64,000 bases of DNA from Escherichia coli (GTDB lineage Bacteria > Pseudomonadota > Gammaproteobacteria > Enterobacterales > Enterobacteriaceae). The DNA lies in assembly GCF_029227855.1 (NCBI RefSeq), contig NZ_CP074356.1; one strand, written 5' to 3'. Positions 8,601 through 11,600 of this stretch are shown here, one piece after another; within the stretch, counting starts at the first letter, position 1; the number at the start of each line of letters is the position of its first letter. A program made the position numbers.

Positions 8601-11600
8601 CGCAAAAGTTATCTATTTGTTCAAAAAATGATTGAGTCTTGACTGGCTCATCCAATGTGGAAAAATGTGACTTTTATCACATAATAGTACTAAGTCTGAA
8701 TTTTCCGGGTTATCTCAAAATGGAATACGGTTCGACAAAGATGGAAGAGAGACTCTCTCGCAGCCCTGGCGGCAAATTGGCTTTGTGGGCTTTCTATACA
8801 TGGTGTGGCTATTTTGTCTGGGCAATGGCGCGTTACATCTGGGTGATGAGCCGGATCCCCGATGCCCCCGTGTCGGGATTTGAAAGCGATTTAGGCTCTA
8901 CCGCGGGAAAGTGGTTAGGGGCACTGGTCGGATTTTTATTTATGGCTCTGGTCGGGGCATTGTTAGGCAGCATTGCCTGGTATACCCGACCTCGTCCCGC
9001 ACGTAGCAGACGCTATGAATAAAAACTGCTAAGGTTGCGACTCTTTGGCAACGGGGCGCGTATGGACGTACAACACTGGCAGGCACAGTTCGAAAACTGG
9101 TTGAAAAACCATCATCAGCACCAGGACGCGGCCCATGACGTATGTCATTTTCGCCGTGTCTGGGCTACGGCACAGAAGCTGGCGGCAGATGACGATGTCG
9201 ATATGCTGGTGATTTTAACCGCCTGTTATTTTCACGATATTGTGAGCCTGGCGAAAGATCATCCGCAACGGCAGCGTTCTTCAATCCTGGCGGCAGAAGA
9301 GACGCGTCGCCTGCTCCGTGAAGAGTTCGTGCAATTTCCGGCGGAGAAAATCGAGGCCGTTTGTCATGCCATTGCCGCTCACAGTTTCAGCGCGCAAATC
9401 GCCCCCTTAACAACGGAAGCTAAAATCGTCCAGGATGCGGATCGGCTGGAAGCCCTGGGGGCGATTGGCCTGGCGCGCGTGTTTGCCGTTTCAGGGGCAT
9501 TGGGCGTGGCGCTGTTTGATGGCGAAGATCCGTTCGCACAGCATCGCCCGCTGGATGATAAACGCTACGCGCTGGATCATTTCCAGACTAAGTTGCTGAA
9601 GCTACCGCAAACCATGCAAACCGCAAGAGGCAAGCAGCTGGCGCAGCACAACGCGCAATTTTTAGTCGAGTTTATGGCGAAGCTCAGTGCCGAACTGGCG
9701 GGGGAGAATGAAGGTGTCGATCACAAGGTGATAGATGCGTTTTCACCCGCGGGCTGAGCGCGTGGCCCTAAATGGCTGTAATTATGTTAACCTGTCGGCC
9801 ATCTCAGATGGCCGGTTAAATCTATGCAGGAAAATATATCAGTAACCGATTCATACAGCACCGGGAATGCCGCACAGGCAATGCTGGAGAAACTGCTGCA
9901 AATTTATGATGTTAAAACGCTGGTGGCGCAGCTTAATGGTGTGGGTGAGAATCACTGGAGCGCGGCAATTTTAAAACGTGCACTGGCGAATGACTCGGCA
10001 TGGCACCGTTTAAGTGAGAAAGAGTTCGCCCATCTGCAAACGTTGTTACCCAAACCACCGGCACATCATCCGCATTATGCGTTTCGCTTTATCGATCTAT
10101 TCGCCGGAATTGGCGGCATTCGTCGCGGTTTTGAATCGATTGGCGGACAGTGCGTGTTTACCAGCGAATGGAACAAACATGCGGTTCGCACTTATAAAGC
10201 CAACCATTATTGCGATCCGGCGACGCATCATTTTAATGAAGATATCCGCGACATCACCCTCAGCCATAAAGAAGGCGTGAGTGATGAGGCGGCGGCGGAA
10301 CATATTCGTCAACACATTCCTGAACACGATGTATTACTGGCGGGTTTTCCTTGTCAGCCATTTTCGTTGGCTGGCGTATCGAAAAAGAACTCGCTCGGGC
10401 GGGCGCACGGTTTTGCCTGCGATACCCAGGGCACGCTGTTCTTTGATGTGGTGCGCATTATCGACGCGCGTCGTCCGGCGATGTTTGTGCTCGAAAACGT
10501 CAAAAACCTGAAAAGTCACGATAAAGGAAAAACGTTCCGCATCATCATGCAGACGCTGGACGAACTGGGCTATGACGTGGCTGATGCAGAAGATAACGGG
10601 CCAGACGATCCGAAAATCATCGACGGCAAACATTTTCTGCCGCAGCACCGTGAACGCATCGTGCTGGTGGGGTTTCGTCGCGATCTGAATCTGAAAGCCG
10701 ATTTTACCCTGCGTGATATCAGCGAATGTTTCCCTGCGCAGCGAGTGACGCTGGCGCAGCTGCTGGACCCGATGGTCGAGGCGAAATATATCCTGACGCC
10801 GGTGCTGTGGAAGTACCTCTATCGATATGCGAAAAAACATCAGGCGCGCGGTAACGGCTTCGGTTATGGAATGGTTTATCCGAACAATCCGCAAAGCGTC
10901 ACGCGTACGCTGTCTGCGCGTTATTACAAAGATGGCGCGGAAATTTTAATCGATCGCGGCTGGGATATGGCCACGGGTGAAAAAGACTTTGACGATCCGC
11001 TGAATCAGCAACATCGTCCACGTCGGTTAACGCCTCGTGAATGTGCGCGCTTAATGGGTTTTGAAGCGCCGGGAGAAGCGAAATTCCGCATTCCGGTTTC
11101 GGACACTCAGGCCTATCGCCAGTTCGGTAACTCGGTGGTCGTACCGGTCTTTGCCGCGGTGGCAAAACTGCTTGAGCCAAAAATCAAACAGGCGGTGGCG
11201 TTGCGTCAGCAAGAGGCACAACATGGCCGACGTTCACGATAAGGCCACTCGCAGCAAAAATATGCGCGCGATTGCCACGCGTGATACGGCGATTGAGAAG
11301 CGCCTCGCCAGTCTGTTAACCGGGCTGGGCCTGGCGTTTCGCGTTCAGGACGCCAGTCTGCCCGGACGCCCGGATTTTGTCGTTGATGAATATCGCTGCG
11401 TGATATTTACCCACGGCTGCTTCTGGCACCATCATCACTGCTATTTGTTTAAAGTGCCTGCGACTCGAACCGAGTTCTGGCTGGAGAAGATAGGTAAAAA
11501 TGTTGAACGCGATCGCCGCGATATCAGTCGCTTGCAGGAACTCGGCTGGCGCGTATTGATTGTCTGGGAGTGTGCGTTACGTGGGCGCGAGAAGCTGACG

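What the first reader, a model, noticed from the sequence alone, without database searches (positions are those of the whole stretch)
8657..8738. Perfect CRP palindrome inside the likely annotated 5' end of yedR
TGTGA-CTTTTA-TCACA (8666-8681) lies 9 nt downstream of the GTG that gives the 121-aa YedR length. A perfect 5+6+5 CRP consensus is expected by chance only about 0.06 times in 64 kb, and two other perfect sites in this window sit in known CRP-regulated promoters (flhDC, azuC). Either yedR is CRP-regulated from a site within its own N-terminal coding region, or the true start is one of the downstream ATGs (8720 or 8738). The predicted membrane helices all lie downstream of those ATGs.
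Basis: inference. Interest (0 to 1): 0.35.

Follow-up and report, generated by a model that had tools for sequence, protein, structure and literature searches.

The report
CRP operator over the drpB promoter
The perfect CRP palindrome is real, but it lies in the promoter of the small cell-division gene drpB (formerly yedR) rather than in its coding sequence, and published work already shows the later start codon, tight CRP binding and CRP repression, so the case is largely solved.

Summary
Observation confirmed. TGTGACTTTTATCACA lies at 8666-8681, 9 nt after the old GTG (8657). The window holds 3 perfect sites against 0.05 expected by chance. The other two sit upstream of azuC and flhD. One slip: the second downstream ATG is at 8741, not 8738.

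yedR is now drpB. [quoted passage not shown] SMRT-Cappable-seq (PMC6131387) maps transcription starts at window 8672 and 8692. Each fits a sigma-70-like promoter found by the scan. The CRP centre (8673.5) therefore lies at about +1.5 and -18.5, which are repressor positions. Repression of yedRJ by CRP, with EMSA binding to the promoter fragment, is published (PMC8085971). Site-level in vitro binding, Kd about 1.9 nM, is in a 2026 preprint (PMC12871828).

New here: all eight other Enterobacteriaceae taxa examined keep a CRP site 44-68 bp upstream of the conserved drpB ATG. Seven have an in-frame stop between the site and the ATG. Six of nine taxa have a -10-like hexamer ending on the first T of TGTGA.

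Verdict: a conserved CRP operator that occludes the drpB promoter. Already known; low interest.

The parts
8666..8681 (.). Perfect CRP (cAMP receptor protein) site TGTGA-CTTTTA-TCACA, centre 8673.5
   Evidence: It is identical in K-12 at NC_000913.3 2033460-2033475. Footprint-seq gives Kd about 1.9 nM for taTGTGAtaaaagTCACAttt (PMC12871828). A CRP site is kept at the equivalent place in 8 of 8 other taxa.
8639..8666 (+). Upstream drpB promoter: -35 TTGACT (8639-8644), 16-nt spacer, TG at 8658-8659, -10 AAAAAT (8661-8666). Its last T is base 1 of the CRP site.
   Evidence: Promoter scan, 9 of 12 with a TG extension. A -10-like hexamer sits in the same register in 6 of 9 taxa, and is a perfect TATAAT in three.
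8672..8672 (+). Transcription start 1 (K-12 2033469, reverse strand), inside the CRP site spacer. The CRP centre is at about +1.5.
   Evidence: SMRT-Cappable-seq Supplementary Data 2: operon b1963|b1962|b1961|b1960, TSS 2033469 (PMC6131387). Mapping K-12 = 2042141 - window comes. The published coordinate may be off by 1 nt.
8658..8685 (+). Downstream drpB promoter: -35 TGGAAA (8658-8663), 16-nt spacer made almost entirely of the CRP site, -10 CATAAT (8680-8685) overlapping the last 2 bp of the CRP site
   Evidence: Promoter scan, 9 of 12. [quoted passage not shown]
8692..8692 (+). Transcription start 2 (K-12 2033449, reverse strand), an A 7 nt after CATAAT. The CRP centre is at -18.5.
   Evidence: SMRT-Cappable-seq Supplementary Data 2: operon b1962, TSS 2033449; mapping.
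8657..8659 (+). Obsolete annotated GTG start (codon 1 of the 121-aa YedR). It is upstream of both mapped transcription starts.
   Evidence: PMC7648144 calls it the incorrectly annotated GTG. The frame is closed in relatives.
8720..9022 (+). drpB coding sequence as established experimentally (100 aa, ATG-22 start). The 5' UTR is 28 or 48 nt, with no obvious Shine-Dalgarno sequence.
   Evidence: Western blot and mutagenesis in PMC7648144; K-12 RefSeq drpB 2033119-2033421.
8741..8743 (+). ATG-29: the start used by NCBI's PGAP pipeline (93 aa) in this strain and most E. coli genomes, and the only Met conserved across the family
   Evidence: locus 3582 = window 8741; M29 is invariant in the 12-sequence alignment.
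9062..9757 (+). yedJ (HD phosphohydrolase), co-transcribed with drpB. Longer transcripts run on into dcm-vsr.
   Evidence: Annotation; SMRT-Cappable-seq operons; 'yedRJ' is treated as one CRP-repressed unit in PMC8085971.

Best explanation
The palindrome is a high-affinity cAMP-CRP operator laid over the core promoter region of drpB (formerly yedR), the first gene of the drpB-yedJ(-dcm-vsr) transcription unit. It is not in translated sequence. Two sigma-70-type promoters 20 bp apart fire at window 8672 and 8692, and translation starts at ATG 8720. The 16-bp CRP site begins on the last base of the upstream -10 hexamer and contains transcription start 1. It also fills the spacer and touches the -10 of the downstream promoter. 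Bound CRP should therefore exclude RNA polymerase from both promoters, lowering drpB-yedJ expression when cAMP is high, that is, on poor carbon sources. What is shown: the site, the in vitro binding, the start codon, the transcription starts, the negative effect of CRP on mRNA level, and conservation of the site across genera. What is inferred: that repression works by steric occlusion at this site rather than by another route.
For: 1. The site is perfect and non-random.
2. CRP binds it in vitro with Kd about 1.9 nM (PMC12871828 Table 1). The yedRJ promoter fragment shifts with CRP in EMSA, and the operon is classed 'Crp repression' from carbon-source and crp-null transcriptomes (PMC8085971).
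3. [quoted passage not shown] The K-12 record has been revised accordingly.
4. Capped 5' ends lie at K-12 2033469 and 2033449, which are window 8672 and 8692. Each lies 6-7 nt downstream of a -10-like hexamer with a -35 at 16-nt spacing. This places the CRP centre at +1.5 and -18.5.
5. Comparative data: all 8 other taxa have a CRP site (6 perfect, 2 with one mismatch) 44.5-67.5 bp upstream of the conserved ATG, although the flanks have diverged. Six of 9 taxa have a -10-like hexamer ending on base 1 of TGTGA, and three of those are perfect TATAAT. No taxon has a -10-like hexamer that would put the CRP centre at the class II (-41.5) or a class I (-61.5 or beyond) distance.
6. The 87-bp block is present in 4908 of 5426 complete E. 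coli genomes with at most 2 mismatches. The sampled SNPs spare both half-sites.
Against: - No experiment I found mutates this site or maps polymerase and CRP competition, so occlusion is inferred from geometry.
- The Data S5 table giving the CRP site predicted in the EMSA paper was not available. Its shifted fragment could owe some binding to another site.
- In vivo occupancy is not resolved at site level. The ETEC ChIP-seq peak in this intergenic region was assigned to the other, imperfect motif about 290 bp away.
- Transcription start 1 falls on a T, which is unusual, and the published coordinate may be off by 1 nt.
- E. fergusonii lacks the abutting -10.
- A secondary source cites EcoCyc for RpoE as an activator of drpB. 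I found no convincing sigma-E motif.
Confidence: 0.8

Rival explanations
1. CRP activates drpB from this site, as a class II (-41.5) or class I (-61.5) activator of a promoter firing close to the start codon.
For: The site centre lies 46.5 bp upstream of ATG 8720 and 44.5-67.5 bp upstream of the conserved ATG in the other taxa, so a short-leader class II arrangement is geometrically conceivable. Phytobacter has a TATAAT that would put CRP at about -35.5, and E. fergusonii has one that would put it at -54.5.
Against: No capped 5' end is reported near 8715 or 8735; the mapped starts are 8672 and 8692. E. coli has no -10-like hexamer ending near 8708. No -10 is conserved at an activating distance across taxa. 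The published transcriptome classification is repression.
Confidence: 0.07
2. The site serves a divergent target on the other strand, either rseX or the yedS/OmpC-like porin gene, rather than drpB.
For: The palindrome has no orientation. rseX (8492 to 8403, minus strand) and the porin gene lie upstream on the other strand. A second CRP site at 8374-8389 lies in the same intergenic region.
Against: The centre is about 181 bp upstream of the rseX 5' end and about 580 bp from the porin start, well beyond the usual class I distances. In the other taxa the site keeps a fixed relation to drpB and to the abutting -10, while the upstream intergenic sequence is not conserved.
Confidence: 0.04
3. The site is truly intragenic: a 121-aa isoform from GTG-1 is made from read-through or upstream transcripts, and CRP binds within its coding sequence.
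For: On plasmids GTG-1 can initiate. [quoted passage not shown] The two sampled E. coli SNPs within 8657-8719 are synonymous in that frame (my reading).
Against: Only the M22 form was detected from the native chromosomal locus. Both mapped transcription starts are downstream of the GTG. The frame carries stop codons between the CRP site and the ATG in 7 of 8 other taxa, including E. albertii, and E. albertii also differs by a 5-bp length change in this stretch. Family conservation starts at M29.
Confidence: 0.04
4. It is a chance palindrome in AT-rich intergenic DNA with no function.
For: The region is AT-rich, and CRP-like sequences can occur without a regulatory role.
Against: 0.05 sites are expected per window. 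Binding in vitro is in the nanomolar range. A CRP site is kept at the equivalent place upstream of drpB in all nine taxa despite diverged flanks.
Confidence: 0.01

Closest known systems
CRP-repressed promoters where the CRP site overlaps the -10/+1 region (the textbook example I recall is cyaA P2; from memory, not checked here)
   Same: A consensus-like CRP site lies over the core promoter and transcription start. cAMP-CRP lowers transcription. The likely mechanism is exclusion of RNA polymerase.
   Different: Two tandem starts are covered by one site here. No site-directed or in vitro transcription test has been done for drpB. The target is a divisome accessory protein operon rather than a cAMP-circuit gene.
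Class I and class II CRP-activated promoters (for example flhDC at -71.5, also present in this window at 62853-62868)
   Same: The same protein and the same 5+6+5 palindrome. The site quality is as good as at azuC and flhDC in this window.
   Different: The position relative to the transcription start is +1.5 and -18.5, not -41.5, -61.5 or -71.5. The published effect is repression.
Mis-annotated N-terminal extensions that swallow a gene's own promoter, as in the published drpB/yedR re-annotation (Yahashiri 2020)
   Same: This is that very case. The 121-aa GTG start was a gene-caller choice with no Shine-Dalgarno sequence, and the real promoter lies inside the supposed first 21 codons.
   Different: Nothing differs. 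The only loose end is that PGAP uses ATG-29 (93 aa) in most E. coli genomes, while experiment and the K-12 record use ATG-22 (100 aa).

Membership tests
CRP (cAMP receptor protein) DNA site | Match to the palindromic consensus TGTGA-N6-TCACA with A/T-rich flanks | tested here: met
   10 of 10 half-site bases match, with flanks aaa/taa. 0.05 such sites are expected per window.
CRP (cAMP receptor protein) DNA site | Direct binding of purified cAMP-CRP | not testable with these tools
   Published: Footprint-seq Kd about 1.9 nM for this exact sequence in K-12 (PMC12871828); EMSA on the yedRJ promoter fragment (PMC8085971).
CRP (cAMP receptor protein) DNA site | Occupancy in vivo (ChIP) | tested here: inconclusive
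   An ETEC H10407 ChIP-seq peak lies in the drpB/porin intergenic region. Its listed centre is 95 bp from this site, and the authors assigned the peak to the other motif, 196 bp away.
CRP (cAMP receptor protein) DNA site | Conservation of the site at orthologous promoters | tested here: met
   8 of 8 other taxa have a site with at most 1 mismatch, 44.5-67.5 bp upstream of the conserved drpB ATG.
CRP-repressed promoter (operator overlapping the core promoter) | The site overlaps the -35/-10/+1 of the regulated promoter | tested here: met
   Published capped 5' ends map to 8672 and 8692. The promoter hexamers overlap or abut 8666-8681. The abutting -10 is conserved in 6 of 9 taxa.
CRP-repressed promoter (operator overlapping the core promoter) | Higher expression without CRP or cAMP | not testable with these tools
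   Published classification 'yedRJ: Crp repression', from carbon-source series and a crp null strain (PMC8085971). No site mutant has been reported.
Class I / class II CRP-activated promoter | Site centred near -41.5 (class II) or -61.5, -71.5, -82.5 or -92.5 (class I) from the transcription start | tested here: not met
   The centre is at +1.5 and -18.5 relative to the two mapped starts. No -10-like hexamer lies at the required distance in E. coli or consistently in the other taxa.
Intragenic (within-ORF) CRP site | The site lies in translated sequence | tested here: not met
   Translation starts at 8720 (PMC7648144). In-frame stops lie between the site and the ATG in 7 of 8 relatives. The '(yedR)' intragenic flag in PMC12871828 reflects the old 121-aa annotation.

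The most novel reading that the evidence does not exclude
The arrangement of a CRP site on the drpB -10/+1 has been kept across Enterobacteriaceae genera. If that reflects real physiology, cAMP-CRP would tune a divisome accessory protein whose excess triggers the Rcs and Psp envelope stress responses. Through read-through transcripts it would also tune YedJ and part of Dcm/Vsr expression. This would link carbon status to septal assembly and to cytosine methylation and very-short-patch repair. None of this has been tested at the level of phenotype.
Probability: 0.3. Interest if true: 0.35.

Novelty: already known. Interest (0 to 1): 0.15.

Why it matters
This is mostly a matter of tidying the record.
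- It shows that a high-affinity CRP site listed as "intragenic" in a 2026 genome-wide binding study is a promoter operator once the corrected drpB start is used.
- It ties together four separate publications (start codon, transcription starts, CRP repression, site-level affinity) into one consistent promoter model.
- The cross-genus conservation of the CRP site fused to the -10 hexamer is independent evidence that the repression is selected for.
- It also flags that automated RefSeq annotation (93 aa) and the experimental start (100 aa) still disagree.
- It does not open a new kind of biology.

Tried and rejected
- Supplementary Data S5 of PMC8085971, which gives the predicted CRP site for yedRJ, is not held as text.
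- The dRNA-seq TSS paper I recalled as PMC4288677 is not held.
- The Cappable-seq supplements (PMC4782308) contain none of the coordinate prefixes 203344, 203346 or 203347 in the stored text. The two transcription starts therefore rest on one data set plus the unspecified RegulonDB start cited by Yahashiri 2020.
- I looked for a sigma-E promoter because a secondary source cites EcoCyc for RpoE at drpB. Rhodius 2005 does not mention yedR. A motif scan gave only two 9-of-12 matches, which is about the background rate of 0.47 per 185 nt, and neither fits a mapped start. Rejected as unsupported.
- The local Pfam copy gave no hit for the 121-aa protein, although precomputed annotations list PF28000 DrpB for homologues. 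This was uninformative for the N-terminus, so I used a family alignment instead.
- P0026 (Citrobacter amalonaticus) had no contig on record.
- I did not use the costly genome contigs or metagenome scans, because eight loci from the look-up of encoding contigs answered the conservation question.

Full report
**1. The observation**

The window is Escherichia coli. The 901-bp stretch 8160-9060 around the finding is 100% identical to strain JNEC-KY178. It is colinear with K-12 across the region of interest, where the K-12 NC_000913.3 coordinate equals 2042141 minus the window coordinate.

TGTGACTTTTATCACA occupies 8666-8681. GTG 8657 opens a 121-codon frame, and the site begins 9 nt after it. Three perfect TGTGA-N6-TCACA sites occur in the window, against 0.05 expected from 100 dinucleotide-preserving shuffles.

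One slip: the in-frame downstream ATGs are at 8720 and 8741. Position 8738 begins an AAG codon.

**2. What the gene is and where it starts**

yedR has been renamed drpB, a cell division protein. Yahashiri et al. 2020 (PMC7648144) reported the following:
- A stop codon at codon 10 does not abolish function, but stops at codons 23 and 30 do.
- Only the ATG-22 form is seen by Western blot from the native chromosomal locus.
- A construct beginning at GTG-1 expresses drpB without inducer, whereas constructs beginning at ATG-22 or ATG-29 need inducer.

They concluded that translation starts at ATG-22 (window 8720). [quoted passage not shown] The K-12 RefSeq record now gives drpB as 2033119-2033421, which is 100 aa. 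PGAP, in this strain and most other E. coli genomes, instead aa from ATG 8741.

**3. Transcription starts and promoters**

SMRT-Cappable-seq Supplementary Data 2 (PMC6131387) lists two reverse-strand starts, 2033469 and 2033449. The first heads the operon b1963|b1962|b1961|b1960, and the second heads b1962. These are window 8672 and 8692.

The consensus scan had already proposed two sigma-70-like promoters, and each fits one start:

| Promoter | -35 | Spacer | -10 | Mapped start |
|---|---|---|---|---|
| Upstream | TTGACT (8639-8644) | 16 nt, with a TG extension | AAAAAT (8661-8666) | 8672 |
| Downstream | TGGAAA (8658-8663) | 16 nt | CATAAT (8680-8685) | 8692 |

The CRP centre (8673.5) is therefore at about +1.5 of the first promoter and -18.5 of the second. 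The site shares its first base with one -10 hexamer and its last two bases with the other. These are occluding positions, not activating ones.

**4. CRP binding and effect**

The Footprint-seq preprint (PMC12871828) lists taTGTGAtaaaagTCACAttt, the reverse complement of the window site, among novel high-affinity sites. Its Kd is about 1.9 nM.
- It is labelled "(yedR)", meaning intragenic. With the corrected start codon that label is an annotation artefact.
- The listed region centre, 2033477, is 9.5 bp from the motif centre, 2033467.5.

PMC8085971 lists yedRJ among the operons newly validated by EMSA, with the mode "Crp repression". That classification came from a carbon-source series and a crp-null strain.

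An ETEC ChIP-seq study (PMC4287617) reports a CRP peak in the yedR/porin intergenic region but assigns it to a different, imperfect motif. In NC_017633.1 the listed peak centre is 95 bp from the perfect site and 196 bp from the assigned motif. In vivo occupancy of this particular site is therefore unresolved.

**5. Comparative evidence (new here)**

Within E. coli, the 87-bp block 8636-8722 is present in 4908 of 5426 complete genomes and never has more than two mismatches. The sampled variants change the first spacer base (giving TGTGAT), one base upstream of the site and one base downstream of it. Neither half-site is affected. One strain has an IS3 insertion that replaces everything upstream of 8683.

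I then took DrpB homologues and fetched loci from eight other taxa: E. albertii, E. fergusonii, Lelliottia, Klebsiella aerogenes, Atlantibacter, Pseudocitrobacter, Phytobacter and Kluyvera.
- Seven of the eight keep the order porin gene, intergenic region, drpB, yedJ, then dcm or vsr. The Lelliottia locus has a different upstream gene.
- All eight have a CRP site, six perfect and two with one mismatch. The site is centred 44.5-67.5 bp upstream of the family-conserved ATG, although the flanking sequence is barely alignable.
- In seven of the eight, an in-frame stop codon lies between the CRP site and the ATG. In E. albertii the stop is at -39, and the spacing also differs from E. coli by 5 bp. 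The GTG-1 extension is therefore an E. coli-specific accident.
- Protein conservation begins at M29.
- Counting E. coli, six of nine taxa have a -10-like hexamer whose last T is base 1 of TGTGA. It is a perfect TATAAT in K. aerogenes, Pseudocitrobacter and Kluyvera. Two more taxa have one shifted by 2 nt.
- No -10 is conserved at class II or class I distance.

The conserved unit is thus "-10 hexamer fused to a CRP site", which is a repressible promoter.

**6. Mechanism**

The most likely mechanism is that cAMP-CRP binds 8666-8681 and sterically blocks RNA polymerase at both drpB promoters. This would reduce drpB-yedJ transcripts, and the longer drpB-yedJ-dcm-vsr transcripts, when cAMP is high.

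The site, the binding, the start codon, the transcription starts, the direction of regulation and the conservation are all shown. Occlusion as the mechanism is inferred.

The rival explanations are activation from a downstream start, a divergent target (rseX or the porin gene), a translated 121-aa isoform, and chance. Each is contradicted by the data above, and together they carry roughly 15% of the probability.

**7. Comparison with known systems and novelty**

The site works like the classic CRP-repressed promoters in which the operator overlaps -10/+1. The example I recall is cyaA P2, which I did not check here. It fails the positional criterion for class I and class II activation, and it is not an intragenic site.

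Every main element of the finding is already in the literature: the start codon in 2020, the transcription starts in 2018, repression with EMSA in 2021, and site-level affinity in 2026. My contribution is the integration of these results and the cross-genus conservation. Novelty: already known. Interest: low.

**8. Side observations**

- RseX sRNA lies at 8403-8492 on the minus strand (Rfam RF01401, 96.7 bits).
- A second CRP site, TGTGATCACGCGCACA, lies at 8374-8389 between rseX and the porin gene. It corresponds to the 4.9 nM "yedS" site in Footprint-seq.
- The porin gene is intact here (annotated ompC) but is the pseudogene yedS in K-12.
- A secondary source cites EcoCyc for RpoE control of drpB. 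I found no supporting motif and no mention in the sigma-E regulon paper.

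Noticed in passing
window 8374-8389: A second CRP-like site, TGTGATCACGCGCACA (1 mismatch), lies between the 3' end of rseX and the porin gene, about 290 bp upstream of the porin ATG (8090, minus strand). The K-12 version (ggTGTGAtcaggcGCACAtta) has Kd 4.9 nM in Footprint-seq and is labelled 'yedS'. E. albertii keeps a 1-mismatch site at the same relative place. It may regulate the porin gene.
   Followed up: partly
NC_017633.1 2210119-2210426 (locus L017 520-827): The ETEC H10407 CRP ChIP-seq peak centre listed as 2210222 is 95 bp from the perfect drpB site and 196 bp from the motif the authors assigned (CGTGATCTCGCGCACA). 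Their motif search window was stated as plus or minus 50 bp. Either the coordinates are offset or the peak merges two sites.
   Followed up: partly
window 8403-8492 (minus strand): RseX Hfq-binding sRNA (Rfam RF01401, 96.7 bits), divergent from drpB. Its intrinsic terminator is the GC-rich hairpin at 8408-8428.
   Followed up: yes
window 8720 versus 8741: Annotations disagree on the start. The curated K-12 record starts drpB at ATG-22 (100 aa), as shown experimentally. PGAP starts it at ATG-29 (93 aa, WP_001297704.1) in this strain and most E. coli genomes. E. albertii, E. fergusonii and K. aerogenes also have a short in-frame upstream ATGGAG 15-21 nt before the annotated ATG.
   Followed up: partly
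window 6897-8090 (minus strand): The porin gene next to the locus is intact here (annotated as OmpC). Its K-12 counterpart, yedS, is a pseudogene.
   Followed up: no
L006 (NZ_CP145718.1) 291-1500; equivalent to window upstream of 8683: Strain S1-CAM-01-C carries an IS3-family insertion whose junction falls just after the CRP site position. It removes the CRP site and both native promoters from in front of drpB, giving a natural operator-deletion allele.
   Followed up: partly
L007 (NZ_CP147099.1) 235-387: Strain KOr024 has drpB annotated as two overlapping CDS, which suggests a frameshift. The first starts at the ATG-22 equivalent.
   Followed up: no
window 54047-54062 and 62853-62868: The other two perfect CRP palindromes lie about 83 bp upstream of the azuC ATG and about 270 bp upstream of the flhD ATG. 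The flhD position fits the flhDC CRP site at about -71.5 and the roughly 198-nt leader that I recall from memory.
   Followed up: yes
window 8540-8725: PMC10100675, citing EcoCyc, lists RpoE as an activator of drpB. A sigma-E motif scan gave only background-level matches, and the sigma-E regulon paper does not mention yedR. The source of this attribution is unexplained.
   Followed up: partly
window 8692-9824 and beyond: SMRT-Cappable-seq reports transcripts from the drpB starts running through yedJ into dcm-vsr. It also reports internal starts at K-12 2033099 and 2032340. CRP control at drpB could therefore spill over to Dcm and Vsr.
   Followed up: no
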